A DNA stretch of 64,000 nucleotides from a virus, in the IMG/VR virus record IMGVR_UViG_3300016665_000824, positions 70,297 through 134,296 of that record; one strand, 5' to 3'. The translations under genes and the position numbers were made by a program. Below the pieces are notes generated by a model. It searched no databases. It was not told where the DNA came from and was given only the letters and a program-made list of their open reading frames with translations. Below, piece after piece: positions 12,519 to 60,448 of the stretch (its first letter is position 1; each line of letters starts with the position of its first letter).

Positions 12519-12542
12519 AAAAAGCCAGTCGCGGGACTGGCT
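12516..12542 (-). terminator. hairpin with U-run on minus strand
   Basis: agccagtc-gcgg-gactggct preceded on plus strand by A7; would terminate minus-strand (antisense) transcripts inside a plus-strand gene block. Confidence 0.35.
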
Positions 12543-12618
12543 ACAGGTAAAACAACAAAAGACAACTAAGCGGAAATCAACATATACCGAGCATTTGTGG
12601 AGAACAGCTCAGGCACTT

Positions 12619-28105: not shown

Positions 28106-28331
28106 CCCAGCAGGACATTATCCTAGACAAGATGCGTCGGAAGCAATCGGAATTTGAAGACTACTACGTTTTTAGCACTCACGACATAGTGACCCTATGT
28201 GAGGACAGTCATCTGGACTGGGACTTGGCTTTTGACCAGCTAATAGCTTTAAACAAGAGGAATCTAGTTGCTATAAATCCGACATATTGCGATCGCACAG
28301 GCAAATTTATCGGATTGTTGTGGGGTTTAAA

Positions 28332-47567: not shown

Positions 47568-48015
47568 CGATGTCGTTAACCTTTTTTTCTGCGATCACAC
47601 CAGTAAACTCTTTAACCGCAGAAACTCCGTTAAAAGCCCATGCGTTAGGCATTCCACCAGCTTCCGAGGTAGTGAGATAACGAGGCGTGGGATTGAAAAA
47701 ACTAAGAAGAGCCATAATGCCCATAGGAATAACCACGATCGCTGTGCATCCGTATAGAAGCGCCCATCGTTTGTTGCTCAAAACAGAGTCTATAAATGCT
47801 CTAGCGGAAACGATGATTGCCTGATGCTGATCTTTGTCGATCAAGTAAACTCTTTTACCTGATTCAAGTCCATCAACAAGACCATCACCGTTGATATCGC
47901 CACTAAAAGCCGTCTTACCTGCTTTCCCGTAAACAACAATATCGCATTCTGCTCGTTTCATTGTCATTGGTTTTCCTCCTCCACCGCCCTGTGGCGGCAT
48001 ATTTCCTGCGTTCAT
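47497..48015 (-). CDS. hypothetical membrane protein
   Basis: Gly-rich N-terminus and one TM segment (WALLYGCTAIVVIPMGIMALL). Confidence 0.4.
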   Translation of the reverse strand: MNAGNMPPQGGGGGKPMTMKRAECDIVVYGKAGKTAFSGDINGDGLVDGLESGKRVYLIDKDQHQAIIVSARAFIDSVLSNKRWALLYGCTAIVVIPMGIMALLSFFNPTPRYLTTSEAGGMPNAWAFNGVSAVKEFTGVIAEKKVNDIVAENTKKNDDVAFSPRQARAERR

Positions 48016-48018
48016 GTT

Positions 48019-49362
48019 TTAAGCCGTTCTTGGAAACAGCACTAGGTTGTCTTTACCGATCGCGAGGATTCTATCAAGAGCTTCCTCCACCGATTCTTCA
48101 GTGACTTCCGACTTCTCGGAATCAAACCTGAAGCCGTCCAGATGCTTGAGATCTGGCATTAATGCAATCTTGGGTATACCCATTGTGGTTAGCAATACTG
48201 GGCGATCGCCTTGCTTCTTAGCCATTGCGATCGCATCTCCAAGCATCCCCGCAAGAGATAATCTTTGCTGCTTATTAGGGAATAGTTTTGCATCGGCAAG
48301 AGCTGCTTCAATGGGCCTATAGCCAACATCATTCTTTTCACCCATGCGACCTAGCGCAAGAACTGAGAAGCAGCCTCGCACTGGGTCGCTGAAGCCAATT
48401 TGAGTACAAAGGTGAGTTTGCGCGACAAGAATAAGGCGAACACACATCTCTCTTCCCATAGCAACTATCTGATTGAGCATTCCAAAAAATTCTGCCTCTC
48501 TTTTTGAGGAAGCAATCATGTCTTGTAGTACCCACCACTCGTCAAGGATTAGATATTGAGGGGCAAAGACTGGGCGCTTCCCGCCTTCTCGTAATATCTT
48601 TTGTACTGCGCGAATCCTATTCTTCATGATCTTAAAGGCGCGGCTAATCTGCTCGGAAGCAGCATCAAGCTGCTCGTCTTGCGTGTCTTGATCTAAGTAG
48701 GTGACGATGCCATCTTCGCTTTGAAGCCCTAGCCAGTCCGTTGTCTTTGGATCGACAATACCGAATTTAGAAGCGGGGTTGATCTTCTTTATTCGCTGGA
48801 TAAGCGCCTTTAGCAAGGTAGACTTACCCGCGCCAGACTTGGTGGCAATCAGTACATGAAGATCTGTGTGAGCCACCTCGCCGATAATATCTCCAGTAAA
48901 CACTCCTTTCGAGTACTCGGTAACAGCTATAGGCTCTTCGTCCGTATAAGGCTCGTCATCAAACTGAGGAGGTCTAACTGCTGCTACTGGTTGAGGGCGA
49001 GGCGCGGATGTGCGCTGAACATTGGTATTGCGAATAATTACTGGGGCAGCAACTTGCTGTTGAGCGTGAGGCAGAGCTACTGGAGTCTCCTCGCCTTTGG
49101 GTTGTTCATCTTCAAGGTTGCTTGCCAAGCCGACACCTGACGCGATCGCCATGCCAAGAAAAGCCAAAGTAGCAATAGGATTATTGTAGGAACTGGGCTG
49201 AAGTACAGCCTGTTGCCCATGATCGTTAACACTTGAGTCTACCCTCCTGTATTCGTCTGCGGACTTAAATAGGACATCTCTCGGTAATACCGACCATCCA
49301 GCAGCTCCTAGCCATGCTGCACAGCTAATGCCTAATAGTAGGTTTACTGTTGACTTCTTCAT
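48019..49362 (-). CDS. membrane-anchored P-loop ATPase, FtsK/SpoIIIE/VirD4-like
   Basis: N-terminal TM segments, Pro/Gln-rich linker, Walker A TKSGAGKST, Walker B YLILDEWW. Confidence 0.55.
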   Translation of the reverse strand: MKKSTVNLLLGISCAAWLGAAGWSVLPRDVLFKSADEYRRVDSSVNDHGQQAVLQPSSYNNPIATLAFLGMAIASGVGLASNLEDEQPKGEETPVALPHAQQQVAAPVIIRNTNVQRTSAPRPQPVAAVRPPQFDDEPYTDEEPIAVTEYSKGVFTGDIIGEVAHTDLHVLIATKSGAGKSTLLKALIQRIKKINPASKFGIVDPKTTDWLGLQSEDGIVTYLDQDTQDEQLDAASEQISRAFKIMKNRIRAVQKILREGGKRPVFAPQYLILDEWWVLQDMIASSKREAEFFGMLNQIVAMGREMCVRLILVAQTHLCTQIGFSDPVRGCFSVLALGRMGEKNDVGYRPIEAALADAKLFPNKQQRLSLAGMLGDAIAMAKKQGDRPVLLTTMGIPKIALMPDLKHLDGFRFDSEKSEVTEESVEEALDRILAIGKDNLVLFPRTA

Positions 49363-50093
49363 AGCTTCTTGTTCAGTTTTCCAGCTTGGGCATTGGGGCT
49401 GGACTCGATTAGGTCTAGCCTTATTCTTTGAAGCTCGTCAAGATTGCTTCTTACTACTTCTGGAGCGGTTTCAACCAGTTCAACTCTTCCCTCGCGAGCC
49501 GCCTCAATAGCTAAAAGATTTGCGTTTGCGAGAATCATCTCCTTGGCATCTCTAGCGCGAGAAGCAGCTTGCTGGCGAGCTAGCCAAGCGTCTCGTTTTC
49601 TGTTTAGATCGCAGTCAATCCCTTTCTCGGATCGAAGGCAGTCTTTATCGTTTTTATCCTTGACCGCTTTGTTTGCGGCTTGGAGATAATCATTCGCTAG
49701 AATTTTTATTGCAGCGTCCGTGTCTTTGTCTAAGGCTGCTTTAGCACCAGCTTTCGCCTCGCTAAAACTAATCTTTTTGCCTTCTAAAGATTTTTGGAGC
49801 AACTCCTCGGATCTTTGGTCAAAGGATTTAGGAACGAAAGGATCTATTCTTTCTGCGGGTTTGGGTTGGCTGTTGACCACTGCCGCGATCGCAATAACAG
49901 TAGAGACAACGCCTAGCCCGATATATATTAAGTTTTTTGGAGTAGCCCAAGCGAGGTTCGACTGAGCGGGTGCTGTAGCTGCGGGTGTCGTGGGAGCAAG
50001 TCGGCTGGGCTGTCTTTCTGTGATTCGAGGGGTAGCGATTGGAGTATCCGCTACTTCCTCAAACTCATCTTGCATTGCGGCAGTGTCAAGCAT
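49359..50093 (-). CDS. membrane-anchored coiled-coil protein
   Basis: Pro-rich N-terminus, TM segment (IYIGLGVVSTVIAIAAVV), Lys/Ala-rich coiled coil. Confidence 0.4.
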   Translation of the reverse strand: MLDTAAMQDEFEEVADTPIATPRITERQPSRLAPTTPAATAPAQSNLAWATPKNLIYIGLGVVSTVIAIAAVVNSQPKPAERIDPFVPKSFDQRSEELLQKSLEGKKISFSEAKAGAKAALDKDTDAAIKILANDYLQAANKAVKDKNDKDCLRSEKGIDCDLNRKRDAWLARQQAASRARDAKEMILANANLLAIEAAREGRVELVETAPEVVRSNLDELQRIRLDLIESSPNAQAGKLNKKL

Positions 50094-50095
50094 AT

Positions 50096-50458
50096 CTACC
50101 TCCCCGCCGAAGGAAGAAATTGACTGATTGGGCGGTTCGTAGGAAGAAAAGGATTGTCTTCCGAGTTGTTCACGCCAGTAAAAAAATCACCGAGAACTTC
50201 TCCGCTATAGGCGATCGCGTCAGGGAGTTTTTGAATTACGTTGAGCGCAATCTGTTCTCCAACCGCAAAGGCGATCGTTCCTGCGATTTCATTGCCGACT
50301 TGAGTTCCGACTGTGCCAACCTGAGTGCGAACCTGCATTTGTACCTGTTCTGGGGTTAGAAGGGCGGACTGGGGAGCAGTAGCCCTAACATCTTCTACAG
50401 GAGTTACATCTAGCAAGGCTTGCTCTTCTTCGGTTAAATGAGCGTTATCTTTGGACAT
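50096..50458 (-). CDS. hypothetical protein
   Basis: 120-aa ORF, coupled. Confidence 0.35.
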   Translation of the reverse strand: MSKDNAHLTEEEQALLDVTPVEDVRATAPQSALLTPEQVQMQVRTQVGTVGTQVGNEIAGTIAFAVGEQIALNVIQKLPDAIAYSGEVLGDFFTGVNNSEDNPFLPTNRPISQFLPSAGR

Positions 50459-50720
50459 CTTCGTATGTACTCTCTAAAAAATCTGAACATTTTTGGTAAT
50501 TAGACAGGGCAGCTTTTTTTGTAAAACCTCTTGCTTTGAGGCTGGTCTCTTTTCCGATTGCGGCTATCTGTCTTGCAGTTTTAAGACCGCAAGGAGATTT
50601 GATTCTTACTCCTCTCTTCTTTAAAAGGCGGTATCCCCAATCCTTAAAAGTCCCAAAAGGTATGCCAATCTGCTCTGCCCACTCGTGAAGGTGGCGTTCT
50701 ACTTGGCTTGTTTGCGTCAT
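50445..50720 (-). CDS. hypothetical basic protein
   Basis: 91-aa ORF, coupled. Confidence 0.35.
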   Translation of the reverse strand: MTQTSQVERHLHEWAEQIGIPFGTFKDWGYRLLKKRGVRIKSPCGLKTARQIAAIGKETSLKARGFTKKAALSNYQKCSDFLESTYEDVQR

Positions 50721-50908
50721 AGGTCTTCAAAGTTTTCTGGAACAAGGTCGAACGAATCAAAGTTTGCGAGCTGAGATTCTACCTGTTCTAGTTCCAAGCT
50801 AAGATTCTGGGCATCTTCTCCTTGACTCTGTAACTCAGAGATAGACCTCTTAAGTTGATACTTTCTATTAAATAATGATCTAATCAACTCGTCTTGGGCG
50901 TTTTGCAT
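50717..50908 (-). CDS. hypothetical coiled-coil protein
   Basis: 63-aa ORF, first gene of coupled operon. Confidence 0.3.
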   Translation of the reverse strand: MQNAQDELIRSLFNRKYQLKRSISELQSQGEDAQNLSLELEQVESQLANFDSFDLVPENFEDL

Positions 50909-50930
50909 AAGCTTTATGGATAAATATTCG

Positions 50931-50986
50931 TCTGATTAGACTGTCCGATCACCTGTCCAATGGACATCTGATTAGACTGTCCGATC
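50931..50986. promoter_or_regulatory. two 20-bp direct repeats (TCTGATTAGACTGTCCGATC), candidate operator
   Basis: Copies at 50931-50950 and 50967-50986 in the divergent region between the operon start (50908) and RHH gene (51089). Confidence 0.45.
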
Positions 50987-51088
50987 AGAATAAAATTAGT
51001 GTACTTAAGTTATTCGCACTTGTCAACAAAATAGTAGAAACTCGTTTTGAATGCGCTAATATTGGGCAATTCAACCTATTAAGACCTT

Positions 51089-51352
51089 ATGAGCGTCACT
51101 CAGACTGCGCGTTTCCCCGATGATTTACATGCTGCATTGAAAGAACACTGCGATCGCACAGGAAATAGCGCCAACGCAGAAATAATCCTCGCAGTGCGAA
51201 AACATCTGGGTATGCCAACAGTCGAAGATCGTCTCGATAGTCTTGAAGAGGGATTGAGAAAATGTATTGATAGGTTGAATAGGCTAGAGGCTAGCGCGAT
51301 CGCCACTCAGCAATCTTCCGACACCGATATTCGGTCCAGTGCGGATGATTAG
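51089..51352 (+). CDS. ribbon-helix-helix (Arc/MetJ/CopG-type) transcriptional regulator
   Basis: N-terminal TARFPDDLHAALKEHCDRTGNSANAEIILAVRKHL fits beta-strand/helix/helix RHH pattern. Confidence 0.45.
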   Translation: MSVTQTARFPDDLHAALKEHCDRTGNSANAEIILAVRKHLGMPTVEDRLDSLEEGLRKCIDRLNRLEASAIATQQSSDTDIRSSADD

Positions 51353-51593
51353 TCGGCGTGTACCAATTTTCATATTTGTAAGTACCCTTTGACCTGTTGC
51401 AAGGCGTACAAGCTGGTACGGTATTTGCAAAGTCGTCGCTACCCGAATCATGGCGCGGAATGATATGGTCTAGTCCGTTTGCCTCGTTACCGCAGTAGGC
51501 ACATTTATAGTCAAACTCTTGGAACGTATAATCTCTAATCTTTTGCAAAACATCTTTTTTCCTAATGCAGTCAGATAGGGATATATAGAGCAT
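51291..51593 (-). CDS. HNH endonuclease
   Basis: CAYCG ... LDHIIP ... ACTPCNRSKG HNH motif; start set at ATG 51593 (ORF track 51638). Confidence 0.7.
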   Translation of the reverse strand: MLYISLSDCIRKKDVLQKIRDYTFQEFDYKCAYCGNEANGLDHIIPRHDSGSDDFANTVPACTPCNRSKGTYKYENWYTPTNHPHWTEYRCRKIAEWRSR

Positions 51594-51709
51594 ATTCAAT
51601 ACCCATGTTTTGACAATGCTGCCACAAAATTGAAACAAGTGCGGCGATCGCTACAGATTTGGCGAACCAAATATCGCTATACTGACACAAGAAGATTTTT
51701 AAAAACTAA

Positions 51710-51916
51710 ATGCTTAAGTACAAACAAGCTGAAGTGGCGATCGCTCCCAACGGTTCGTGCGAAATTCTTTGGGGAAATAACCACCCCACAATGGCTGGAA
51801 TGAAGCAAGATGTACATCTGCCTGAAGAGATCAAGGGCCACCTTGTTGCAGTAAATCAGTACGTCAGTCAGTACATTGATATCGTGACGGAGCCAGCAGA
51901 TGTCTTGGACTTATAG
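51710..51916 (+). CDS. hypothetical protein
   Basis: 68-aa ORF. Confidence 0.35.
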   Translation: MLKYKQAEVAIAPNGSCEILWGNNHPTMAGMKQDVHLPEEIKGHLVAVNQYVSQYIDIVTEPADVLDL

Positions 51917-52145
51917 AGTCTGCCGTGATTTTGAACCTAATGGGGAAGAGTTCCTCAGTATTCGCGAATGCTGGGTTAGAGAGGGCGCTTCCCCTCCCTA
52001 TAAAGACGAGGACTATACTTCTTGGTCTGCCGAGCCTATTTCTGTGGTCGGAGATAATCTTGAAGAGCTGGCATGGAAGCTAGAGAAGATGGCGATCGCT
52101 CTGAAGAAAAACATTCTTGATATACCACGCGATCGCCCTGAGTAA
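51900..52145 (+). CDS. hypothetical protein
   Basis: 81-aa ORF. Confidence 0.35.
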   Translation: MSWTYRVCRDFEPNGEEFLSIRECWVREGASPPYKDEDYTSWSAEPISVVGDNLEELAWKLEKMAIALKKNILDIPRDRPE

Positions 52146-52188
52146 ATGCACAAGAAATCCCGAAATCGTGTGCATGTTTATTCAATAT

Positions 52189-52241
52189 ACACAAGCAACC
52201 CGCCAAGCCTCTCTACGATGCTGAAACTGGCGGGTTGCTTG
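52189..52241. terminator. stem-loop between convergent genes
   Basis: cacaagcaacccgcc ... ggcgggttgcttgtg, ~14-bp stem with ~23-nt loop, followed by T-rich tgttgtg. Confidence 0.45.
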
Positions 52242-52249
52242 TGTTGTGA

Positions 52250-52633
52250 TTATACCTGAGTGGCGAAGTATTTAGAGGCGATCGCGATAAGCCTTAATTG
52301 TTCGCTGGGATAAATCCCTGAAGGTCCAACTGCCTCATATAGTCTCTTTAGCACCTCAGCTTTGCCGTACTCGGAAATCAGTAAAGCCCATCCAAGTACA
52401 TGTAGCTGGAACAAAAGCTCTTTCTGGAGCCGTTCCTTATGAGCTGTACTCTTACCCTTAAACGTCGGATGTCGAACCTCTCGTACTCGCAGCTTGTTTT
52501 TCGGGAAGGAAATGTAGAGACTTGAGGTTAGGTATTCATCTATCAGAACGAGAAGTTCTTGGCGATCTTTTTGTAAGAGTTCTGCTTGCATAGACATACT
52601 CAAAAACCTTTGTATTTCTGCCAAGAAGTCCAA
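52250..52633 (-). CDS. hypothetical protein
   Basis: 127-aa ORF. Confidence 0.4.
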   Translation of the reverse strand: MDFLAEIQRFLSMSMQAELLQKDRQELLVLIDEYLTSSLYISFPKNKLRVREVRHPTFKGKSTAHKERLQKELLFQLHVLGWALLISEYGKAEVLKRLYEAVGPSGIYPSEQLRLIAIASKYFATQV

Positions 52634-53190
52634 AGGTTTTTTACTTCAATACCCTTTTTCTTGGCATATTTCACACAGTTAGCCGTACCACCTCTCGACC
52701 CGTCCCATAGTGCGAGCATTCTGTTAGCCCGATCGCACATCCACTCATTCCTAATCTGCATCGCCGCAGCCGAGTATGGCACATCAGGGCAATGCACGGC
52801 GATCGCCTTGTCGCAGATATACTGCCATTGGTCTTGCTGCGACTGACTCCACTTAAATGAGTGGTTTAAGCAAGGTACTGCGGCGACGAGAGGTATTTCT
52901 AATTCGATCGCTGCTAATGCGATCGCGGTGTCCCATCCCAAAGCCATGCCAGAAATAACAATTACAGGTCTTTCTTGCATCAAGGCATTCTTAGCAAGGG
53001 TAGTAAGTCTGGGCAGGGTTAAGGATTCGTATTGACTCCACGTACTTTGCAGCTTCTGGGGGCGATGTCCTGTGCCAGCAACGACTAATTGCCCGTCGGT
53101 AAGATCGAGTTTAATGTCGGAGGAGTCTGATTCGCTACCTATAGGAATATTAACTTGGAGCCAGTGATCGGTGATTGATATTGTTTTCAT
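52600..53190 (-). CDS. SLOG-superfamily protein (DUF1273/YpsA- or DprA-like Rossmann fold)
   Basis: VVAGTGHRP, VIVISGMALGWDTAIALAA and GSRGGTANCV motifs. Confidence 0.4.
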   Translation of the reverse strand: MKTISITDHWLQVNIPIGSESDSSDIKLDLTDGQLVVAGTGHRPQKLQSTWSQYESLTLPRLTTLAKNALMQERPVIVISGMALGWDTAIALAAIELEIPLVAAVPCLNHSFKWSQSQQDQWQYICDKAIAVHCPDVPYSAAAMQIRNEWMCDRANRMLALWDGSRGGTANCVKYAKKKGIEVKNLWTSWQKYKGF

Positions 53191-53465
53191 TCTAAAATCC
53201 CTGCGCTTACTAGGTCTGGTTTTAGATCTCTGACGGCTTCGCTCATGGTTTTTACGATTTTATTTCGTTTCACCAAGAGGGATCTAATCTCGCCTGCTTT
53301 GGTTGTTGAGTCGTATAGAGCGAACCTCCCCCCTTGCAAGAGTTCGTCAGCGATCGCTTCAAATTCTGCGGACAAAACCCTGAAGTCCTCAGCTAAAAGC
53401 TTTGCCTCGGCAACAGCTTCTAGAAACTCGTCAAGTCTCTCAAGCCTCCAGTCTTTTTGTGTCAT
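53187..53465 (-). CDS. hypothetical protein
   Basis: 92-aa ORF. Confidence 0.35.
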   Translation of the reverse strand: MTQKDWRLERLDEFLEAVAEAKLLAEDFRVLSAEFEAIADELLQGGRFALYDSTTKAGEIRSLLVKRNKIVKTMSEAVRDLKPDLVSAGILE

Positions 53466-53836
53466 TGCTTCTTAAAACCTTCAAAAGGGATATAAGGCTC
53501 TTGCTCCATCCACTGCTTAAGGCGATCGCGGGCAAAAGCTTCTCGATATTGCGGTGGAACAAGACTAACTTCCTGTGCTGCTGCTTCGTACTTGTCTAAC
53601 TCGGCGATCGCATCATCAGCCGACATTCTCCCAAACAGTACTTCCTGATTAAGTAACGCATACTGAAGTTCGTACATTAATTCAGGATCTGTGGGCGTAT
53701 ATTCGGGAACAAGCTTGGACAGGTCTTCAATCGCACTGCACCAGTGTTGGTCGCTGGAGCAAGGTGCATCATCGGCTTTGACTCGTGACCATAACAAGTT
53801 GACAAGGATTAATTCGAGTTGTTTAGGATCTGCCAT
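53462..53836 (-). CDS. hypothetical protein
   Basis: 124-aa ORF. Confidence 0.4.
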   Translation of the reverse strand: MADPKQLELILVNLLWSRVKADDAPCSSDQHWCSAIEDLSKLVPEYTPTDPELMYELQYALLNQEVLFGRMSADDAIAELDKYEAAAQEVSLVPPQYREAFARDRLKQWMEQEPYIPFEGFKKQ

Positions 53837-54344
53837 GTGGGTAATACGAAAAACTATTGGGGAATATAGAACCTATTAGCAAGGAAATACCTGTATCGAC
53901 GTAGTTGCAAATAGCAAATACTTCTTTCTTATTTAGGTCTAAGAATGGCAAGTCTTCCTTGAGAAACGCCTCAATACGCTTGGTAAAGATTACGCAGTTA
54001 TCGGGGCAAAAACGCTCAATATTGCCTGCGTCTACTGCTATATATCTTTTATGGTCGGCAAAGAAGAAGCTTTGGGCGTTATAAGCGCTACCAAAGTCAA
54101 TAACCGTCCAGTGCGTCGGGATTATCTTGGATAAGTAGTAGTAAGTATCGACAAACCCAAGAAAGCTTGGTTCGATATCGACGTATTCTTGGTTGAACAC
54201 GCGATCGCCCTGCTCTTTAGGCAGCAAAGCCAACAGTTTGGCATTGATCGATTCAGCTTCTTGCCAGCGAAGGGCATTGTCATTAGGTATTATCATCGTC
54301 ATACTCCTCACGATCGCGTGCTTCTTGTTCTTGGTAGCCACCAA
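53823..54344 (-). CDS. hypothetical protein
   Basis: 173-aa ORF. Confidence 0.4.
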   Translation of the reverse strand: MVATKNKKHAIVRSMTMIIPNDNALRWQEAESINAKLLALLPKEQGDRVFNQEYVDIEPSFLGFVDTYYYLSKIIPTHWTVIDFGSAYNAQSFFFADHKRYIAVDAGNIERFCPDNCVIFTKRIEAFLKEDLPFLDLNKKEVFAICNYVDTGISLLIGSIFPNSFSYYPHGRS

Positions 54345-54522
54345 AAGTCAGCAACATCCCACGGATTACGGACAGATTAACTTCATTGGATGAATACTTT
54401 TTAGTCGGGAGGGATTCTTCTAAGTGATCAAGGGTGTCCCGAACCCTGTAAATTAGCCGCAGCCACTCAGGAATTTCTAGAATTATTGCTGACGCGATCG
54501 CGTAAAGGACTATTAGGTTCAT
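54283..54522 (-). CDS. hypothetical protein
   Basis: 79-aa ORF, overlaps neighbour. Confidence 0.3.
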   Translation of the reverse strand: MNLIVLYAIASAIILEIPEWLRLIYRVRDTLDHLEESLPTKKYSSNEVNLSVIRGMLLTFGGYQEQEARDREEYDDDNT

Positions 54523-54942
54523 TTACAGAAGCTCCTTAGAGAAGAAAGTTGTTTCTTTAGCCACGTCGATATCGACAGGATGAAGACCAACCGCCAACGA
54601 CTCTAAAGCCTCACTCGCGTTACTAGGATCTACTACCCACGTTTTTGCGTCAACTTCGGGCACTTGAGACCAGTATCTTTGCAACCACTTTAACCAGCCG
54701 TTGCGAGAAAACGGTTTAGGCGGATCGATTGCCGCCAATTTTTCAACAGCTTCTTTTACAAGGATCGCATCCTCTTCTAGGCTTGCTGAGTCAATCCAGA
54801 AACCGCATTTTTTGCAGTAAACAATATAGTTGCCACTGCGCTTTGAGATCTGAATCCCCAAAGAAATGGTCTTGCGAGCAAATCCTTGACTAACTTTTCC
54901 GTAGTTAGGATCGATCGCTTTCCGTCTTTTAGCTTCACCCAT
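54523..54942 (-). CDS. hypothetical protein
   Basis: 139-aa ORF with CKKCG pattern. Confidence 0.4.
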   Translation of the reverse strand: MGEAKRRKAIDPNYGKVSQGFARKTISLGIQISKRSGNYIVYCKKCGFWIDSASLEEDAILVKEAVEKLAAIDPPKPFSRNGWLKWLQRYWSQVPEVDAKTWVVDPSNASEALESLAVGLHPVDIDVAKETTFFSKELL

Positions 54943-55192
54943 TAAATTTCTCCCTTGATGTTAATTCGTATAGTCCCATCTCTTCAGTTATCCTAACCAA
55001 CTCACTCAAAGCGTCCATCCTCGCAACCTTCTCCTTGGCTCGCTCAACTTCTTCAAGCATTTCACCATAGGCGAATGGTTCGTATTGCTCAATCGCCTTT
55101 GCGAGGCGATCGCGATCTAATTCATCCAAGGCAGACTTAAATTTGAGATAGGCGATCGCCTCGTTTAGATTGCTTGGTAGTTGGGTTCTCAT
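54935..55192 (-). CDS. hypothetical protein
   Basis: 85-aa ORF. Confidence 0.35.
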   Translation of the reverse strand: MRTQLPSNLNEAIAYLKFKSALDELDRDRLAKAIEQYEPFAYGEMLEEVERAKEKVARMDALSELVRITEEMGLYELTSREKFNG

Positions 55193-55295
55193 TGCGATAC
55201 CACTTATTTATTATTAAAAAATACATAGAAGAAATGCGGCAATTCATATTAAATGAATTACGCTCAACTCCTGAAAAGTGCAAGATATTTCGTAG

Positions 55296-56387
55296 TTAAT
55301 TATGTGTTAAGGGGGTTATCTTGGAGGTTTTAGCACCCTCCTCAGAAAGCCTTGCTAGGTAAGCAGACACCCGCCGTCGCAAACTTTTTTTCGACAGTAA
55401 ATCATACTCTTTTTCAAAGATACAGCAAAGTGATTTGTAAAACAAGTTTTTATACTTGAAATAATGAGTATTCACCCTTTCTGCATCAGCAAAATGTCGA
55501 GACAGATAATAGGAATAGTTTACTTCCGCATTGGAGTCTGTTTGACAAATATGTACTCGTCTCAATCTACTGAGAGACCTGCGATCGCGTACTTCTTCGT
55601 CAATGGCTCGAATCGCATCAAGGATCTCAAGGTCATCGCTAAATGGTTCGGCGGCTTGATGGATCTCTTTTAAGTAGGAGTCCCATCGCCGAGTTAGCGA
55701 TCGCTCCTTGAGATGATTTGATATGGTTCGAGCTGTGACTCCCAATGACTTAGCTATTTCTAGCTGAGAAGCGCCATAAGGTACGAAGTTCTCGTTAGTA
55801 TAAATCCTGTCCTTAGATACTGCCTCAACACCCTCAATCCCCATAGAACATAATTCAGAGGCTTGGAGTTTTAGCAAGTCCTTTGCAGGTACTAACCTGA
55901 GTTTTTTCTTTACTTTGCGCTGCTTGTTTTTTTCTTTTTCTGCCAGTCCAGCAGCAAATTTAGAACGAGCTTGTTTTGCAAGTAATTCGGCGCGAGTACA
56001 GTGATACTTAACTTGAGTGATCTGAATCGGACTTAGTTCGACTATCGACCCAAGTTTGGCAACATCATGTTGTTTGCAGACCTTGCCAATACTTGTGTAT
56101 CGCACCCATGCTCGACCTTCTGGTAGCCACCGATAATCGATAAGCAATCCAGCTTTGTGAGACTCCCTAATCCATTTTTTGAGTGTGTCGGGTTTTACGC
56201 CGCAATCACTCGCCAAATGACTGATATTGAATTTAACCCAGCCTTTCCCGCGATCGCTTCTAGATGAAAACTGATCTAGCCCACGCACGACATGCCAAAT
56301 ATTTACTGCGCCGATCGCATGATTTTTGATCACGGCGTAGAGAATATTTGTGTAAGTTGTGGCAATTATGGGGTAATATAGTTTCAT
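55296..56387 (-). CDS. winged-helix/HTH DNA-binding protein, candidate plasmid-type replication initiator
   Basis: 363 aa with two HTH-like segments (IWHVVRGLDQFSS... and SQLEIAKSLGVTARTISNHL); Rep role inferred from neighbourhood (par genes, tandem repeats). Confidence 0.3.
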   Translation of the reverse strand: MKLYYPIIATTYTNILYAVIKNHAIGAVNIWHVVRGLDQFSSRSDRGKGWVKFNISHLASDCGVKPDTLKKWIRESHKAGLLIDYRWLPEGRAWVRYTSIGKVCKQHDVAKLGSIVELSPIQITQVKYHCTRAELLAKQARSKFAAGLAEKEKNKQRKVKKKLRLVPAKDLLKLQASELCSMGIEGVEAVSKDRIYTNENFVPYGASQLEIAKSLGVTARTISNHLKERSLTRRWDSYLKEIHQAAEPFSDDLEILDAIRAIDEEVRDRRSLSRLRRVHICQTDSNAEVNYSYYLSRHFADAERVNTHYFKYKNLFYKSLCCIFEKEYDLLSKKSLRRRVSAYLARLSEEGAKTSKITPLTHN

Positions 56388-56526
56388 CTGAGCGCTACTA
56401 TCGCTTGGGTCTGCATCTCATCAGGTTGATTAAGGAATTGAGCCTCCTTAGCCAACTGGCAGTAAAAACAATATAACACAAAACCCCCGCAAACAACTTA
56501 TTCTTGTGGGGGTTTTGTTGTAAAAT

Positions 56527-57237
56527 ATGTTTATGCGATCGCGTATCTCACTACCGATCGCTGACCATCCAACCATACTGGACAGTAAAAATATTATGTC
56601 ATACATAGACAGCCTGAAAGTAACTGCGAAGAAACATGCAATAATACAGGATATTATTTCTAGGTGCTGGAATTACTGTGTTCAACCACCCAAGAGACTC
56701 AATTCTGAGATACTTAACCATCCTGACATCATCAGCCTTATTGACCATAGCTGGGATAGCAGTATTGTTGGGCTAAACGAGTACCAAAAGCTTGTATTTT
56801 CCCTTGTCAGTGAAGGGGTAAGCGTTAGAAGCGAGTACCCTCTTTGTTTTCACGACATCTTTGTTAGGTTTCTATCGGAGATGTGCCCACTAAGCCAAAG
56901 GATTTCGATAGAGGAGAACTCTATCGACGAGATACACTTAAAATTTCCAGCCAAAAGAGGGATTTATTTTTGCTTGCGTACGGTTATTGGCTTTCGCCTT
57001 GACGGTTTTAAAAACGAAGTTTGGTATGTCGGGAAGTCGGGAAATTTTAGAGAGAGGTGGAAAAGTCACCACAAGTTTGAGGCTTTAAAGGCTATCAAGA
57101 ACGTTGCAGTGTGTTGGCTGCCCCTCGAAGATTACTCTGATGAGCAGCTAAGCTACGCAGAAGAAGTATATATTTACATGCTTCAACCCGTATTTAATGG
57201 CACTTCCAAGCCTGAAAGGTGTCTAGTGGTTAACTAA
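56527..57237 (+). CDS. GIY-YIG nuclease-domain protein
   Basis: C-terminal KRGIYFCL ... VWYVGKSGNFRERWKSHH ... EEVYIYMLQPVFN fits GIY-YIG. Confidence 0.5.
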   Translation: MFMRSRISLPIADHPTILDSKNIMSYIDSLKVTAKKHAIIQDIISRCWNYCVQPPKRLNSEILNHPDIISLIDHSWDSSIVGLNEYQKLVFSLVSEGVSVRSEYPLCFHDIFVRFLSEMCPLSQRISIEENSIDEIHLKFPAKRGIYFCLRTVIGFRLDGFKNEVWYVGKSGNFRERWKSHHKFEALKAIKNVAVCWLPLEDYSDEQLSYAEEVYIYMLQPVFNGTSKPERCLVVN

Positions 57238-57250
57238 CAAACAGTCTAAT

Positions 57251-57296
57251 AGCCAGACAAAAAAAGATCCGAAACTGGATCTTTTTTTGTCTGGCT
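57251..57296. terminator. bidirectional intrinsic terminator
   Basis: Perfect 20-bp stem agccagacaaaaaaagatcc / ggatctttttttgtctggct with 6-nt loop, between convergent genes. Confidence 0.7.
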
Positions 57297-57342
57297 TGGT
57301 TTTCAACAAAAAAGCACCCCGCCTAAACGAGATGCTTTTCAC

Positions 57343-57912
57343 TTACCTTGGCAGATCCCTCACGATCGCCCTAACAATCCCCTCGAACTCTCGTTCTATA
57401 AGCATGAAAGACTCCTGCCTCGACTCCGCTCGCCTAGCCATAACGGCATCAAATATCTCCGCGTCGCGTTGCTTCAATACTAATGCTGGCTCAGTATTCG
57501 GCGAGAAGCCCCTAACGTAATACGGGAAATAATCAACCCTCCAGTACCGCACTAAGCCATCGTCGGGATTGAGGAAATCTACAGGCGCGATCACCGTGTA
57601 AATAAAGTCCAAATTAATCCCGTCTAGCTCGACCTCCTCCTCGCATTGAGGGCAGATCCATCCCCGTTGAATGGTTGCATTGTCAGGTATTGAGGTGACT
57701 GGGGCTTCAGAACAGATGTGATAGACCAAATACTTGCGGGTAAACCTTCTAGGGTAATCCTTTACAAAGCTATCTAGTAATGCGATCGCCTCTACTCTTT
57801 TTAATCCCAATCTTTGGGCTGCGACATGCGGCTGAGTCCAATCTCCCACCGAACGGAAGATATCTTGGAGGGCGCTCCTCTGGCTATCGGTCAAGCTGGT
57901 TTCGATATACAT
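57343..57912 (-). CDS. hypothetical protein
   Basis: 189-aa ORF with CPQCEEE pattern. Confidence 0.4.
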   Translation of the reverse strand: MYIETSLTDSQRSALQDIFRSVGDWTQPHVAAQRLGLKRVEAIALLDSFVKDYPRRFTRKYLVYHICSEAPVTSIPDNATIQRGWICPQCEEEVELDGINLDFIYTVIAPVDFLNPDDGLVRYWRVDYFPYYVRGFSPNTEPALVLKQRDAEIFDAVMARRAESRQESFMLIEREFEGIVRAIVRDLPR

Positions 57913-57985
57913 AAAATTTTGCTACAGTGAATACATAAAATTGCCACAAATCTGCGATAATTCGACATCGTTTCAAAATAAACCC

Positions 57986-58195
57986 ATGTCAATTTGCGGA
58001 ATCTGTGGCGCGGAAGAAGATAACGGCAACATTTCTTTGGAGTTCGATCGCAAGCGAGGTCTCATCACCTCCAACAGAGATGTTCACTTTACGAAATGCT
58101 GCCAACACGCGATCGCCAAGGGTCGAACAGGATGCCCAAATAAAAAGGGCAAAGTCCTTGACCTGCCCTATCTACGTGTCCGACCTATTGTTTAG
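57986..58195 (+). CDS. small Cys-rich protein
   Basis: ORF 57941..58195 starts at TTG; first ATG at 57986 (MSICGICGAEED...); TGCCACAAA motif upstream. Confidence 0.35.
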   Translation: MSICGICGAEEDNGNISLEFDRKRGLITSNRDVHFTKCCQHAIAKGRTGCPNKKGKVLDLPYLRVRPIV

Positions 58196-59033: not shown

Positions 59034-59575
59034 CGCAGATGTGGAATACCCTTCTTGAACAAGACCCAAGGTTCAAGATGGTAGTGGACTTAGCAACCCC
59101 ACGAGGTAATCGCAAAAATGTGATGCCCCTCACCCGCGAGAATGTTCGGATTGCCTTCGCCGCATTTAATGACGGTATTGCTGAGCAGTTAACCGACTTG
59201 GCGATCGCCTGTTTTAACCGTTCCCACTCTCCTCGATTCGTCACCACCGATGAAGGTGATGAATTTATTGAAACTAGCGAAGAAGAAATCTATTATCAAT
59301 GGGAGCCTGAAGCGGCTTTGAGGATCTGCAACCAACGCCTTGATGGGTTTCTAATTGAGATCAGCGATCGTGGCACTATTACCAAATTTAAGTACGAGCG
59401 ACCACCTTTCCTGTATCCTCACGGCTGGGCCTATCAACCAACCATGCCCGAAGTTCCCGACGATCCTGAATGCTGCACGTTATTTGATCGAAGAAGCCAT
59501 GCTCGTCGCCGTCGAAGATTTGGGAATGTCGGCGACAAGTATGACCTGCATGGTAAAGCGTGGAAGAAGGGTTAA
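58997..59575 (+). CDS. hypothetical protein
   Basis: 192-aa ORF. Confidence 0.35.
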   Translation: MDEEQQPEHRTITQMWNTLLEQDPRFKMVVDLATPRGNRKNVMPLTRENVRIAFAAFNDGIAEQLTDLAIACFNRSHSPRFVTTDEGDEFIETSEEEIYYQWEPEAALRICNQRLDGFLIEISDRGTITKFKYERPPFLYPHGWAYQPTMPEVPDDPECCTLFDRRSHARRRRRFGNVGDKYDLHGKAWKKG

Positions 59576-59823
59576 GGCAGTATCCTGTCCAGCAGGTAGA
59601 TAATTAAGTGCATAGCCTTAACATTCCTGTTCGCGCAGTATATCTTCAGGCGAGTATGCAGTGAAGCAGGTAGATCAACCGTGATCCGCACAGTCCGCTC
59701 CTTCTCCCCTTCCACGGGCAACCCATCCAAAATATTTCCCGCAGTATTGTTTGTGTTCAGATCGGAATTAGCCTTGATAAAATTCTGCTCAATTGTTTCG
59801 GTAAGAGGTATACGCTTAGACAC
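59572..59823 (-). CDS. ParG-like ribbon-helix-helix protein (candidate centromere-binding partner of ParA)
   Basis: C-terminal RITVDLPASLHTRLKIYCANRNVKAMHLIIYLLDRIL is RHH-like; immediately downstream of and overlapping parA. Confidence 0.45.
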   Translation of the reverse strand: MSKRIPLTETIEQNFIKANSDLNTNNTAGNILDGLPVEGEKERTVRITVDLPASLHTRLKIYCANRNVKAMHLIIYLLDRILP

Positions 59824-60448
59824 AGCTCAGCACCTCCTCAAATAAAGCTTCGTACTCTGCCGCCGAATCTTGGGCGGCTTTGCTGTTTAATCCCCAGACA
59901 GTTGTGCGTTGACCAGACGAGTCGGCGATCGCCTGTTTCTGGTGAATCACTGTTTCTAACAATGGGATAACCGATATGGCTTTTAAGGTGGCGATCGCCT
60001 CTTCCTTGAGCATGGTTCGAGGGACTGCGCGGTTTAAAAAGAATGCGGCTCTGGGTAAACCCCCTCGCACTGACTGAGCTTGCAGTATTAGCTTTACTGA
60101 GTCCATTGCCGAGTTGAGGTCTAACCTTGTTGGTTGACATGGAACAATTGCTAGATCAGTTCTTAGTAGGATTGCGCGAGTTACCTCCGACAAGTTGGCG
60201 GGACCATCGAGGATTAAGTAGTCGCTCTTTAGGGCTGGTATTTTGTCGAGAATGCTGTCGGAATCGGACATGATTGTATATGCGATCGGAGTGGCGATCG
60301 TGCCTGCCCATTTACTTGAAGATTGCTGACCATCGGCATCGACCAGGATTACGTCTTTATCGTGGCGGCGCAGATACTCTGCCAAGTGGACTGAAGTGGT
60401 GGACTTGCCACAACCACCTTTTTGATTGACCAACGAGATTACAGTCAT
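59816..60448 (-). CDS. parA: partition ATPase ParA (small, type Ib-like)
   Basis: Deviant Walker A NQKGGCGKST, 210 aa. Confidence 0.8.
   Translation of the reverse strand: MTVISLVNQKGGCGKSTTSVHLAEYLRRHDKDVILVDADGQQSSSKWAGTIATPIAYTIMSDSDSILDKIPALKSDYLILDGPANLSEVTRAILLRTDLAIVPCQPTRLDLNSAMDSVKLILQAQSVRGGLPRAAFFLNRAVPRTMLKEEAIATLKAISVIPLLETVIHQKQAIADSSGQRTTVWGLNSKAAQDSAAEYEALFEEVLSCV

What the first reader, a model, noticed from the sequence alone, without database searches (positions are those of the whole stretch)
52250..55192. Minus-strand block of eight unknown genes headed by a SLOG-fold protein
The block 55192 to 52250 is tightly packed. Its SLOG-superfamily member (GTGHRP, GMALGWD, GSRGGT motifs) belongs to a fold used for nucleotide binding and processing in DNA-uptake and signalling systems. 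None of the other seven proteins is recognisable, so the block is a candidate accessory or anti-defence cassette.
Basis: partly seen in the sequence, partly recalled or inferred. Interest (0 to 1): 0.4.

Follow-up and report, generated by a model that had tools for sequence, protein, structure and literature searches.

The report
Phage accessory operon with SLOG gene
This is a real eight-gene operon in a variable, non-structural part of a cyanobacterial phage genome; it carries a common phage YpsA/YoqJ-type SLOG nucleotide-binding protein, a small methyltransferase-fold protein and six lineage-specific unknowns, so it is ordinary phage accessory content and not a new system.

Summary
Eight same-strand ORFs lie at 55192-52250, with gaps of -14 to +8 nt. 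All eight have phage-like codon usage in the called frame. The five genes for which dN/dS could be calculated against a relative give 0.05-0.16.

The SLOG call is confirmed. The gene at 52600-53190 belongs to the YpsA/YoqJ (DUF1273) clade: a family profile hits PDB YpsA 2NX2 at 5.6e-11, and Foldseek on the AF2 model (pLDDT 91.5) ranks YpsA first (TM 0.72/0.79). It is gene 7 of 8, so it does not head the block.

One other gene is recognisable. g4 (53823-54296) belongs to a large family without a Pfam entry and has a minimal class-I SAM-methyltransferase fold.

The block is not one cassette. Relatives keep only g5+SLOG, or lack g3 and g8, or lack g1-g4 and g6.

The element is a phage of a cyanobacterium (portal, terminase, DnaB/DnaG; HIP1 186 times against about 1 expected).

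Stand-alone YpsA-like SLOGs are already described as common in phages and predicted to counter ADP-ribose-type immune signals. A distant relative, DruSM1 ORF83, shows an anti-AVAST-III phenotype. An anti-defence role is therefore plausible but untested. Verdict: a new member of a known kind, of low to moderate interest.

The parts
55282..55310 (-). Sigma-70-like promoter match (TTAACA-17-TATCTT) upstream of g1, overlapping the 3' end of the 363-aa HTH gene
   Evidence: Consensus scan. The sequence is shown. The scan found fewer promoter-like sites than shuffled sequence gives, so this is only a candidate.
54935..55192 (-). g1: 85-aa acidic, probably helical protein of unknown function
   Evidence: ORF. 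No Pfam, PHROG, NCBIfam or PADLOC hit. 69% identical to the C-terminal part of a longer ORF in L023/L025; absent from L001, L072, L073 and L077. Codon score +0.34. pI 4.8.
54523..54942 (-). g2: 139-aa protein of unknown function, a near-ORFan
   Evidence: Only 3 homologue clusters in 5.8 billion proteins. No IMG/VR relative. 68% identical in L023 with dN/dS 0.05. There is only a sub-threshold DUF2839 N-terminal match, E 0.02.
54283..54522 (-). g3: 79-aa ORF with an N-terminal hydrophobic segment and an acidic tail, found only in this window
   Evidence: Absent from every relative compared; in L023, g2 abuts g4. Codon score +0.25 in frame. Hydrophobic residues 3-21. It contains a HIP1 site at 54494.
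53823..54296 (-). g4: 157-aa protein with a minimal class-I SAM-methyltransferase-like fold, belonging to a widespread phage family that has no Pfam entry
   Evidence: 400 representative clusters at E<=1e-3 and 233 at E<=1e-10. Conserved motifs VIDxGCAYxxQ, YIGVD and FAICNYVP. AF2 pLDDT 93, five-stranded Rossmann sheet. All top 50 PDB Foldseek matches are SAM methyltransferases, E 1e-3 to 1e-2. The BFVD top hit is labelled 'Methyltransferase [Myoviridae sp. ctPoO4]', TM 0.80/0.86. Weak sequence hits to methyltransferases. The family is in 42 IMG/VR loci.
53462..53836 (-). g5: 124-aa acidic protein (net charge -11); the one neighbour that stays next to the SLOG gene in every element of this lineage
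   Evidence: 10 homologues only. Invariant motif RVKAxDAPxxSDQHWC. It lies next to the SLOG gene in L001, L023-25, L072-74 and L077-78. dN/dS 0.11. No PDB or family hit.
53187..53465 (-). g6: 92-aa acidic, probably helical protein of unknown function; its stop overlaps the SLOG start (ATGA)
   Evidence: Present in L023-25 and L077-78. Absent from L001 and L073-74. Other small ORFs occupy its place in L072. No family hit.
52600..53190 (-). g7: 196-aa stand-alone SLOG protein of the YpsA/YoqJ (DUF1273) clade, with a roughly 35-residue N-terminal beta extension specific to this lineage
   Evidence: Pfam DprA 1.3e-6 and YpsA 1.3e-3, both below the curated cut-offs. phrog_289 at 3.1e-19. 552 or more homologues, mostly PF06908, named 'YoqJ' or 'DUF1273' by their sources. 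Family profile against PDB 2NX2 YpsA 5.6e-11. AF2 pLDDT 91.5. Foldseek ranks 2NX2 first, TM 0.72/0.79. Invariant residues T40 G41 H42 R43 P44, G81, D87, R147 N148, G168 T169, N171.
52250..52591 (-). g8: 113-aa basic protein of unknown function (127 aa if the TTG at 52633 is used), found only in this window
   Evidence: No homologue in relatives or in IMG/VR. No PDB or family hit. Codon score +0.13 in frame only. HIP1 site at 52278.
52189..52244 (.). Long hairpin starting 6 nt after the g8 stop, between convergent g8 and the plus-strand 81-aa ORF (51900-52145); the likely 3' end of the operon
   Evidence: RNA fold of 52140-52260(-): stem of about 21 bp, MFE -47.2 kcal/mol, z = -7.6 against shuffles. 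No clean U-tract follows, so its role as a terminator is inferred.

Best explanation
The region is one transcription unit of eight small genes in the non-structural half of the genome of a phage, possibly a phage-plasmid, that infects a cyanobacterium.

It is a mosaic of at least three segments that vary independently: (363-aa HTH gene)-g1-g2-(g3)-g4, then g5-(g6)-g7, then g8. It is not a co-inherited system.

g7 is a stand-alone YpsA/YoqJ-clade SLOG protein. This is a Rossmannoid nucleotide-binding domain whose invariant polar residues (TGHRP loop, GxD motif, RN, GGTxN) line the site where relatives bind AMP, ADP-ribose derivatives or DNA. The most likely job (inferred, about 0.35-0.4) is to bind or cleave a nucleotide-derived small molecule, such as an ADP-ribose-type immune signal or AMP, early in infection and so blunt a host defence. 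This is what has been predicted for viral YpsA-like SLOGs.

g4 is a minimal SAM-methyltransferase-fold protein. It probably binds SAM; its substrate is unknown.

g1, g2, g3, g5, g6 and g8 are lineage-restricted small proteins with no assignable function. They are typical phage accessory genes.

Shown: the gene structure, the two folds, the family membership, the variability among relatives and the phage/cyanobacterial context. Inferred: early expression, ligand identity and any counter-defence role.
For: Gene structure and selection.

Operon limits: promoter-like site and a strong hairpin after g8.

Phage context: portal, terminase large subunit, minor head protein, DnaB, DnaG, SSB, sliding clamp and several DNA methyltransferases.

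Cyanobacterial signature: HIP1 occurs 186 times against 1.1 expected, at the same density inside the block.

SLOG/YpsA clade.

The family is widespread in phages: 191 cultured phage genomes, including Dolichospermum phage Dfl-JY45, and 21 IMG/VR loci.

Links to ADP-ribose systems:
- A family member (P0017) and Myxococcus phage Mx1 carry DUF4326-SLOG fusions.
- The window has its own DUF4326 gene at 12472-13122, Pfam 1.6e-13. DUF4326 is the domain that PMC9503650 links to SLOG/Macro/NADAR ADP-ribose processing.

Precedent:
- Deleting DruSM1 ORF83 (described as a DprA/Smf Rossmann protein) lowers infectivity on AVAST type III hosts (10.1101/2024.04.14.589459).
- Seurat gp80, a protein from a phage of the same subfamily as DruSM1 that I take to correspond to ORF83, has exactly the residues the EVADES preprint names (R89, N90, T112, D114). 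It falls in the same PHROG as g7 (phrog_289).
- Seurat gp80 aligns to the g7 family with RN matching R147-N148 and GT matching G168-T169.

Mosaic structure.

g4 fold and family.
Against: No experiment or sequence feature here shows a counter-defence activity. PADLOC gave nothing significant.

The link to ORF83 is distant: hhalign E 0.009 for a single comparison, 26% identity, and a different Pfam family (YAcAr PF10686 against YpsA PF06908). The ORF83 phenotype comes from a preprint and its mechanism is unknown.

I did not see Macro, NADAR or Nudix among the window's Pfam hits, but only the best 25 of 35 families were listed.

The only YpsA proper with a tested phenotype affects cell division and oxidative stress, not immunity (PMC6459960).

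g7's own scores are below the Pfam gathering thresholds.

g4's Foldseek E-values against the PDB are modest. Its motif I lacks GxGxG, and the model has no beta6-beta7, so it may not be catalytic.

Early expression is assumed from position only.
Confidence: 0.55

Rival explanations
1. g7 is a DprA-like DNA-processing or recombination-mediator protein that works with the phage replication genes around it. On this reading the block is part of the replication/recombination module and not host-directed.
For: The best Pfam hit of g7 itself is DNA_processg_A (1.3e-6). DprA and the DprA-like ShosA are the next structural matches after YpsA. Several phage genomes label homologues 'putative ssDNA binding protein'. 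Neighbours include an HTH_36 protein, an HNH endonuclease, the sliding clamp, ParB, DnaB, DnaG and SSB.
Against: The DprA score is below the gathering cut-off (28.2 against 29.6 bits) and TIGR00732 scores 15.6 against 191. TM-scores to DprA are about 0.5, against 0.72-0.79 to YpsA. g7 is a single domain apart from its short N-terminal extension; from my own knowledge, DprA also has flanking domains. Family members are fused to DUF4326, not to DNA-binding modules. The gene moves among unrelated contexts without any conserved replication partner.
Confidence: 0.15
2. g7 acts like Bacillus YpsA, as a host-takeover factor that blocks cell division or alters redox/NAD physiology. It would not be directed against an immune system.
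For: YpsA is the closest solved structure and the closest Pfam family. YpsA overproduction inhibits division in B. subtilis and S. aureus, and its authors raise the same possibility for the prophage homologue YoqJ (PMC6459960). The GxD/E motif needed for YpsA function is conserved here as G85-W-D87.
Against: The same paper notes that several residues essential for YpsA's division phenotype are not conserved in the phage-type YoqJ, and that the gpsB linkage is specific to Firmicutes. No gpsB-like neighbour is found here. Identity to YpsA is only 19%.
Confidence: 0.15
3. The eight genes form one functional multi-protein cassette, in which the SLOG sensor/enzyme works together with the other seven products.
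For: Tight packing with overlapping stops and starts, and a single hairpin at the end. g5 stays next to g7 in all five variants of this lineage.
Against: Relatives carry g5+g7 alone, or lack g3 and g8, or lack g1-g4 and g6. A 74%-identical SLOG in another phage has unrelated neighbours. A 60%-identical one sits alone beside an IS605-type transposase pair. No conserved neighbour was found across 29 loci.
Confidence: 0.08
4. Some of the eight ORFs (g3, g8) are chance ORFs and not genes.
For: Neither has any homologue in relatives, in IMG/VR or in the family libraries.
Against: Both score positive for phage codon usage only in the called frame. Both fit the operon with 0 to +8 nt spacing. Both were called independently on the source contig. 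The strong hairpin follows g8, not g7.
Confidence: 0.1

Closest known systems
YpsA / YoqJ family (Pfam PF06908, DUF1273; COG 'uncharacterized phage-like protein YoqJ'); structure 2NX2
   Same: The fold matches (Foldseek top hit, TM 0.72/0.79) and a family profile hits 2NX2 at 5.6e-11. The glycine-rich loop after strand 1 and the GxD motif are shared. Homologues about 45-50% identical to g7 pass the PF06908 threshold. Like SPbeta YoqJ, g7 is a stand-alone gene carried by a phage.
   Different: Identity to B. subtilis YpsA is only 19%. g7's own PF06908 score is 19.2 bits against a cut-off of 27.7. There is no gpsB linkage. The first-loop motif is TGHRP where YpsA has TGYKP. g7 has an extra N-terminal extension of about 35 residues, predicted as three beta strands, which only its closest relatives share.
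Viral YpsA-like SLOG domains described by Iyer, Burroughs, Anantharaman and Aravind 2022 (PMC9503650)
   Same: It is a stand-alone SLOG of the YpsA-like clade in a tailed phage with a genome over 100 kb. A DUF4326 gene occurs in the same genome, and DUF4326-SLOG fusions occur within the family.
   Different: That paper's proposed function, sensing or degrading cADPR-type signals, is a prediction. No Macro or NADAR partner was seen next to g7.
DruSM1 ORF83, taken here to correspond to Seurat gp80 (Pfam YAcAr PF10686), reported as anti-AVAST type III
   Same: Seurat gp80 falls in the same PHROG as g7 (phrog_289) and has the same SLOG fold class. Its RN and GT motifs align with g7 R147-N148 and G168-T169. 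It is likewise a small stand-alone gene in a run of small phage genes.
   Different: It belongs to a different Pfam family. It is 130 aa against 196, 26% identical, with hhalign E 0.009. Its nearest solved structures are LOG proteins, not YpsA. Its hosts are enterobacteria.
DprA/Smf and the DprA-like antitoxin ShosA (Shosta)
   Same: They share the SLOG Rossmannoid core and are the second-best structural and profile matches.
   Different: Scores are below the family thresholds. g7 lacks the extra DprA domains. There is no ShosT-like phosphoribosyltransferase partner.
Class I SAM-dependent methyltransferases (for g4)
   Same: The strand order and the motif-I and motif-II positions match (D67/G69; acidic D89 at the end of beta2). 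All top Foldseek matches are methyltransferases.
   Different: g4 is only 157 aa with five strands, so beta6-beta7 are missing. Motif I reads DxGxxxxxQ and not GxGxG. There is no target-recognition domain, no Pfam model matches, and the E-values are modest.

Membership tests
SLOG superfamily | Three-layered alpha/beta Rossmannoid sandwich with a central parallel sheet | tested here: met
   AF2 model with pLDDT 91.5. The Foldseek matches with E<=1e-3 are almost all SLOG proteins: YpsA, ShosA, DprA, Moco carrier protein and TM1055; LOG and the ThsA SLOG domain follow just above that threshold.
SLOG superfamily | Conserved glycine-rich or polar loop after strand 1, plus a GxD/E-type motif after strand 2 | tested here: met
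   T40-G41-H42-R43-P44 and G81...G85-W86-D87 are invariant or nearly invariant in 36 sequences. The GxD/E motif is described for the YpsA clade in PMC6459960.
YpsA/YoqJ family (PF06908, DUF1273) | Score above Pfam's gathering threshold | tested here: not met
   g7 itself scores 19.2 bits against 27.7. Its homologues pass: P0113 43.7 bits, Serratia phage Smarc1 52.5 bits, P0017 34.8 bits.
YpsA/YoqJ family (PF06908, DUF1273) | YpsA is the closest relative by profile and by structure | tested here: met
   The profile of A1 hits 2NX2 at 5.6e-11, ahead of DprA at 6.5e-7. Foldseek rank 1, TM 0.72/0.79. Most of the listed homologues carry a PF06908 hit.
YpsA sensu stricto (Firmicutes cell-division regulator) | Conserved gene coupling with gpsB | tested here: not met
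   No neighbour has any family hit of that kind, and no neighbour is conserved across the family's phage loci. The coupling is described as Firmicutes-specific.
DprA/Smf | Passes the PF02481 and TIGR00732 thresholds; multi-domain architecture | tested here: not met
   28.2 bits against 29.6, and 15.6 against 191. g7 is a single domain plus a short N-terminal extension.
LOG (cytokinin riboside 5'-monophosphate phosphoribohydrolase) | PGGxGTxxE motif with the catalytic glutamate (motif recalled from my own knowledge) | tested here: not met
   g7 has D-G-S-x-G-G-T-x-N-C, with N171 where the acidic residue would be. LOG structures match only at E about 1e-3.
YAcAr (PF10686; the family of Seurat gp80, taken here as the counterpart of DruSM1 ORF83) | Pfam hit to PF10686 | tested here: not met
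   g7 has no PF10686 hit at E<=0.1. Seurat gp80 hits it at 4.9e-18. The two share only phrog_289 and a weak hhalign match.
ThsA-type SLOG sensors (Thoeris) | SLOG fused to an effector (SIR2 or transmembrane) and encoded beside a TIR protein | tested here: not met
   g7 is stand-alone, with no TIR or SIR2 in the block. The structural match to the BcThsA SLOG domain is weak (E 1.8e-3, TM 0.42).
Phage anti-defence protein (functional class) | Demonstrated relief of a defined defence system | not testable with these tools
   Only precedent and prediction are available.
Class I SAM methyltransferase (g4) | Rossmann-like methyltransferase fold with strand order 3-2-1-4-5(-7-6) | tested here: inconclusive
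   Five strands are predicted at pLDDT 93. All top 50 PDB matches are methyltransferases, but at E 1e-3 to 1e-2 and TMq 0.4-0.53, and beta6-beta7 are absent.
Class I SAM methyltransferase (g4) | Motif I GxGxG, and an acidic residue at the end of beta2 | tested here: inconclusive
   D67 and G69 are invariant, but the loop reads DxGCAYxxQ. D89 at the end of beta2 is conserved.
Class I SAM methyltransferase (g4) | Match to a curated methyltransferase HMM | tested here: not met
   g4 has no Pfam or PHROG hit. Only 2 of 39 family members hit Methyltransf_31/25/23, at E 0.005-0.03, and 2 hit methyltransferase PHROGs.

The most novel reading that the evidence does not exclude
The conserved pair g5+g7 could be a cyanophage counter-defence module. 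g5 is an acidic 124-aa protein with an invariant SDQHWC motif. g7 is a SLOG with a lineage-specific N-terminal beta extension. Together they might destroy or sequester a nucleotide-derived immune signal (for example Thoeris gcADPR-type molecules) or disarm an Avs-type sensor. Separately, the g4 family (hundreds of clusters, no Pfam model) could be a previously undescribed minimal SAM-dependent enzyme that phages use for self-protection.
Probability: 0.15. Interest if true: 0.55.

Novelty: new member of a known kind. Interest (0 to 1): 0.27.

Why it matters
Even so, no member of this exact family has a demonstrated function. A cyanophage example with a fixed partner gene (g5) and a DUF4326 gene in the same genome is one more test case for the published idea that viral SLOGs neutralise ADP-ribose-type immune signals.

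On its own the locus adds little. It is typical variable accessory content of a phage genome.

The small methyltransferase-fold family of g4 is a modest by-product worth cataloguing. It is abundant in uncultured phages, absent from Pfam, and gave no tblastn match in the 50,697 deposited phage genomes.

Tried and rejected
- DNA similarity of 50001-58000 to the phage and plasmid collections found nothing useful, only a 49-nt match to a Nostoc plasmid.
- A single-sequence PDB search with g7 gave only spurious WD40 matches. The family profile was needed.
- PADLOC on all eight proteins plus neighbours gave nothing significant.
- NCBIfam gave nothing for the block.
- I looked for a conserved neighbour of the SLOG gene across 29 loci and found none beyond the close lineage. 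The neighbours of the 74%-identical SLOG in L026 are unrelated to g5, g6 and g8.
- Single-protein IMG/VR scans with g4, g8 and g2 found no relatives. An alignment-based scan did recover the g4 family.
- The neighbourhoods of the g4 family showed no informative conserved partner. They are mostly gut-phage early or DNA-metabolism regions.
- tblastn of g4 against cultured phage genomes gave no match.
- PDB sequence searches with g5 and g8 found nothing.
- Two scans of GTDB genomes for g5 relatives, meant to identify a host or prophage, found none.
- I could not obtain the DruSM1 ORF83 sequence itself. I used Seurat gp80, which has the same residue numbering, as a proxy.
- The idea that g3 or g8 are recent foreign insertions is not favoured. 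HIP1 density and codon usage match the rest of the element.

Full report

Between 55192 and 52250 the minus strand carries eight consecutive ORFs:
- g1 54935-55192 (85 aa)
- g2 54523-54942 (139 aa)
- g3 54283-54522 (79 aa)
- g4 53823-54296 (157 aa from ATG; an upstream TTG would give 173)
- g5 53462-53836 (124 aa)
- g6 53187-53465 (92 aa)
- g7 52600-53190 (196 aa)
- g8 52250-52591 (113 aa from ATG; 127 from the TTG at 52633)

Successive genes are separated by -8, 0, -14, -14, -4, -4 and +8 nt. An independent gene caller made the same eight calls on the source contig, a 134,398-nt ENA metagenome contig.

A codon-usage model trained on the window's confidently annotated genes scores every one of the eight positive in the called frame and negative in the other five frames. 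Against the syntenic relative L023, dN/dS is 0.05 for g2, 0.11 for g5, 0.13 for g7 and 0.16 for the upstream 363-aa gene. For g4 and g6, dS is saturated and no ratio could be calculated.

The block is therefore a real, tightly packed gene array. A promoter-like hexamer pair lies just upstream of g1 at 55310-55282 (weak evidence). A stem of about 21 bp (52189-52244; -47 kcal/mol; z = -7.6) starts 6 nt after the g8 stop, between g8 and a convergent plus-strand ORF.

Two details of the finding need correcting. The SLOG gene is the seventh gene of the array, so it is not the head. And g3 and g8 have no homologue anywhere I looked.

**2. What element is this?**

The window encodes a portal protein, a terminase large subunit, a minor head protein, DnaG, DnaB, SSB, a sliding clamp, ThyX, dCTP deaminase, several DNA methyltransferases, HNH endonucleases, and ParA- and ParB-like proteins. 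It is a tailed phage, possibly one with a plasmid-like prophage state.

The cyanobacterial HIP1 octamer GCGATCGC occurs 186 times against 1.1 expected. Ten of these are inside the block, including in g3 and g8.

There is no nucleotide-level relative among deposited phages or plasmids. There is no tRNA gene. No relative of g5 was found in GTDB representative genomes.

The block sits between a 363-aa HTH_36 protein (55296-56387) and an HNH endonuclease (51291-51638), in the replication/partition half of the genome. It is not structural.

**3. The SLOG gene (g7)**

On its own sequence, g7 hits Pfam DNA_processg_A (1.3e-6) and YpsA (1.3e-3). Both are below the curated cut-offs. It hits phrog_289, labelled 'GTP-binding domain', at 3.1e-19.

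It has at least 552 homologues. Most of those listed carry PF06908 (YpsA/DUF1273), and their sources call them 'uncharacterized phage-like protein YoqJ' or 'DUF1273 family protein'.

A 36-sequence alignment shows these invariant residues:
- T40 G41 H42 R43 P44
- G81, with D87 in the motif SGMALGWD
- R147 N148 in the motif MQxRN
- G164, G168, T169 and N171 in the motif DGSxGGTxNC

The profile of this alignment finds B. subtilis YpsA (2NX2) at 5.6e-11, and DprA and the DprA-like ShosA at about 6e-7. An AlphaFold2 model (pLDDT 91.5, pTM 0.89) matches 2NX2 best (TM 0.72/0.79). The next matches are ShosA, DprA, Moco-carrier proteins, LOG and the ThsA SLOG domain.

The SLOG assignment is therefore confirmed and can be sharpened to the YpsA/YoqJ clade. 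The roughly 35-residue N-terminal extension, predicted as three beta strands at pLDDT 73-81, is shared only by the closest relatives.

**4. How common is this family, and what is known about it?**

tblastn finds homologues in 191 deposited phage genomes. The hosts include Streptomyces, Erwinia, Bacillus, Microbacterium and Klebsiella, and the list includes the cyanophage Dolichospermum phage Dfl-JY45. The labels range from 'GTP-binding domain' to 'SLOG family protein'. In Myxococcus phage Mx1 the label is 'DUF4326 and YspA-like SLOG domain protein'.

Iyer et al. 2022 (PMC9503650) surveyed viral SLOG domains and reported the following:
- They are mostly of the YpsA-like clade.
- They occur in 7%, 19% and 31% of small, medium and jumbo phages.
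- They are usually stand-alone.
- They co-occur with Macro, NADAR, Nudix and DUF4326 domains.
- They are predicted to sense or degrade cADPR-type immune signals.

Consistent with this, one family member (P0017) is a DUF4326-SLOG fusion. The window has a separate DUF4326 gene at 12472-13122 (Pfam 1.6e-13).

The only family member with a tested phenotype is cellular YpsA, whose overproduction blocks cell division. The same authors note that the phage-type YoqJ lacks several residues needed for that effect (PMC6459960).

The nearest experimental precedent in a phage is DruSM1 ORF83, described as a 'DprA/Smf Rossmann' protein. Its deletion lowers infectivity on AVAST type III hosts (10.1101/2024.04.14.589459). 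The EVADES preprint predicts that it binds AMP through R89, N90, T112 and D114.

I could not get the ORF83 sequence. Seurat gp80, from a phage of the same subfamily as DruSM1, has exactly those residues at those positions, so I used it as a proxy. It belongs to Pfam YAcAr (PF10686) and to the same phrog_289 as g7. It aligns over 121 columns with the g7 family, with RN matching R147-N148 and GT matching G168-T169. The match is distant: E 0.009 for a single comparison and 26% identity.

A counter-defence role for g7 is therefore plausible by analogy, but nothing here shows it.

**5. The other seven genes**

g4 is recognisable after all.
- A full HMMER search finds 400 representative clusters at E<=1e-3 and 233 at E<=1e-10.
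- The family has conserved motifs FLGFxxxY, VIDxGCAYxxQ, YIGVD and FAICNYVP.
- No Pfam or PHROG model covers it. A few members and the family profile give weak methyltransferase hits.
- The AF2 model (pLDDT 93) is a five-stranded Rossmann sheet behind an N-terminal helical segment.
- All top 50 PDB matches are class-I SAM methyltransferases, at modest scores.
- The best BFVD match is a 146-aa family member labelled 'Methyltransferase' (TM 0.80/0.86).
- The family occurs in 42 IMG/VR contigs but gave no tblastn match in the deposited phage genomes.

I read g4 as a minimal methyltransferase-fold protein that probably binds SAM. Its substrate is unknown, and whether it is catalytic is uncertain: the model has no beta6-beta7 and the GxGxG motif is missing.

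g5 has only 10 homologues and a strikingly conserved motif, RVKAxDAPxxSDQHWC. g2 has three homologue clusters. g1, g3, g6 and g8 have no family or PDB match. g3 has an N-terminal hydrophobic segment. g1, g3, g5 and g6 are acidic and g8 is basic.

**6. Is it a cassette?**

Comparison with related contigs says no.

| Element | Genes present |
|---|---|
| Window | HTH363-g1-g2-g3-g4-g5-g6-g7-g8 |
| L023/L025 | HTH-g1-g2-g4-g5-g6-g7 (no g3, no g8) |
| L077/L078 | g5-g6-g7, plus a remnant of the g4 C-terminus |
| L001/L073/L074 | g5-g7 only, with a different 161-aa gene upstream |
| L072 | g5, two unrelated small ORFs, then g7 |
| L026-29 (a different phage, SLOG 74% identical) | SLOG with unrelated neighbours |
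| L075 (SLOG 60% identical) | SLOG alone, beside an IS605-type TnpA/TnpB pair |

Across 29 loci the SLOG gene has no conserved neighbour outside this lineage. The block is therefore a mosaic of independently gained and lost small genes. Only g5+g7 behave as a stable pair.

**7. Most likely mechanism and rivals**

Best-supported reading: this is an operon of accessory genes. g7 binds or processes a nucleotide-derived small molecule (an ADP-ribose-type signal or AMP) through its conserved loop residues, probably to the phage's advantage against host immunity. g4 is a small SAM-binding methyltransferase-fold protein. The rest are lineage-specific proteins of unknown function.

Rivals:
- A DprA-like DNA-processing role. 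The Pfam hit and the replication neighbours favour it. Sub-threshold scores, the weaker structural match and the DUF4326 fusions count against it.
- A YpsA-like effect on host division or redox state. YpsA is the closest structure, but the key residues are reported as not conserved in phage-type members.
- A single eight-gene functional system. The presence/absence pattern contradicts it.
- g3 or g8 being chance ORFs. Codon usage and packing argue against this.

**8. Novelty and verdict**

The SLOG family, its abundance in phages and the anti-defence hypothesis are all in the literature. This locus is a new, cyanophage-borne member with a lineage-specific N-terminal extension and a fixed small partner gene.

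'Accessory' is supported, 'anti-defence' is untested, and 'cassette' and 'headed by' are not supported.

Interest is low to moderate. The most useful by-products are the g5-g7 pairing and the uncatalogued g4 mini-methyltransferase family.

Noticed in passing
window 12472-13122 (+): A DUF4326 protein (Pfam 1.6e-13; phrog_464), about 40 kb from the SLOG gene. DUF4326 is fused to SLOG in a homologue (P0017) and in Myxococcus phage Mx1. PMC9503650 links it to ADP-ribose processing.
   Followed up: partly
whole window: The cyanobacterial HIP1 palindrome GCGATCGC occurs 186 times (about 1 per 344 nt) against 1.1 expected. This is unusually dense for a phage-like element and points to a cyanobacterial host and long residence in it.
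   Followed up: partly
window 57251-57296: A perfect 20-bp hairpin with T-runs on both sides, between the plus-strand 236-aa ORF (weak GIY-YIG hit) and the minus-strand 189-aa ORF. It looks like a bidirectional terminator.
   Followed up: no
window 59572-60448 (-) and 43376-44035 (-): A ParA-like ATPase with a small RHH-like gene after it, and a ParB_N-like protein next to the sliding-clamp gene. The relative L023 also carries a resolvase. This suggests a plasmid-like (phage-plasmid) lifestyle.
   Followed up: no
window 45980-49362 (-): An M23-peptidase/SLT-domain protein and a 447-aa protein whose L023 homologue has a weak FtsK_SpoIIIE hit, followed by a 244-aa protein with a strongly hydrophobic segment. 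Whether this is DNA-translocation/injection machinery or something conjugation-like is unclear.
   Followed up: no
window 51900-52145 (+) together with g8 at 52250-52591 (-): The convergent pair p_81 and g8, plus the hairpin between them, is absent from all relatives. In L023 only about 180 nt separate the SLOG gene from the conserved 68-aa ORF. It looks like a roughly 500-nt two-gene insertion specific to this phage.
   Followed up: partly
L075:5867-8498: A 60%-identical SLOG homologue sits alone, immediately downstream of an IS605-type Y1 transposase and an OrfB/TnpB gene, in another metagenomic element.
   Followed up: no
window, several loci (for example 28287-29276): The phage carries at least four DNA-methyltransferase hits (C5 and D12/Dam classes; phrog_116 twice, phrog_56, phrog_363), a restriction-endonuclease-like gene (phrog_8790), a PNK3P-domain protein, ThyX and dCTP deaminase. 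That is a heavy investment in DNA modification and nucleotide metabolism. I did not map all the coordinates.
   Followed up: no
L030-L066 (IMG/VR, many from sample 3300045988): In many viral loci the g4-type mini-methyltransferase family lies near a RuvC-like resolvase, a dUTPase-like protein and a roughly 464-aa protein that looks like DUF2400/TIGR02757. These labels are my reading of the sequences and I did not test them. The family has no Pfam or PHROG model.
   Followed up: partly
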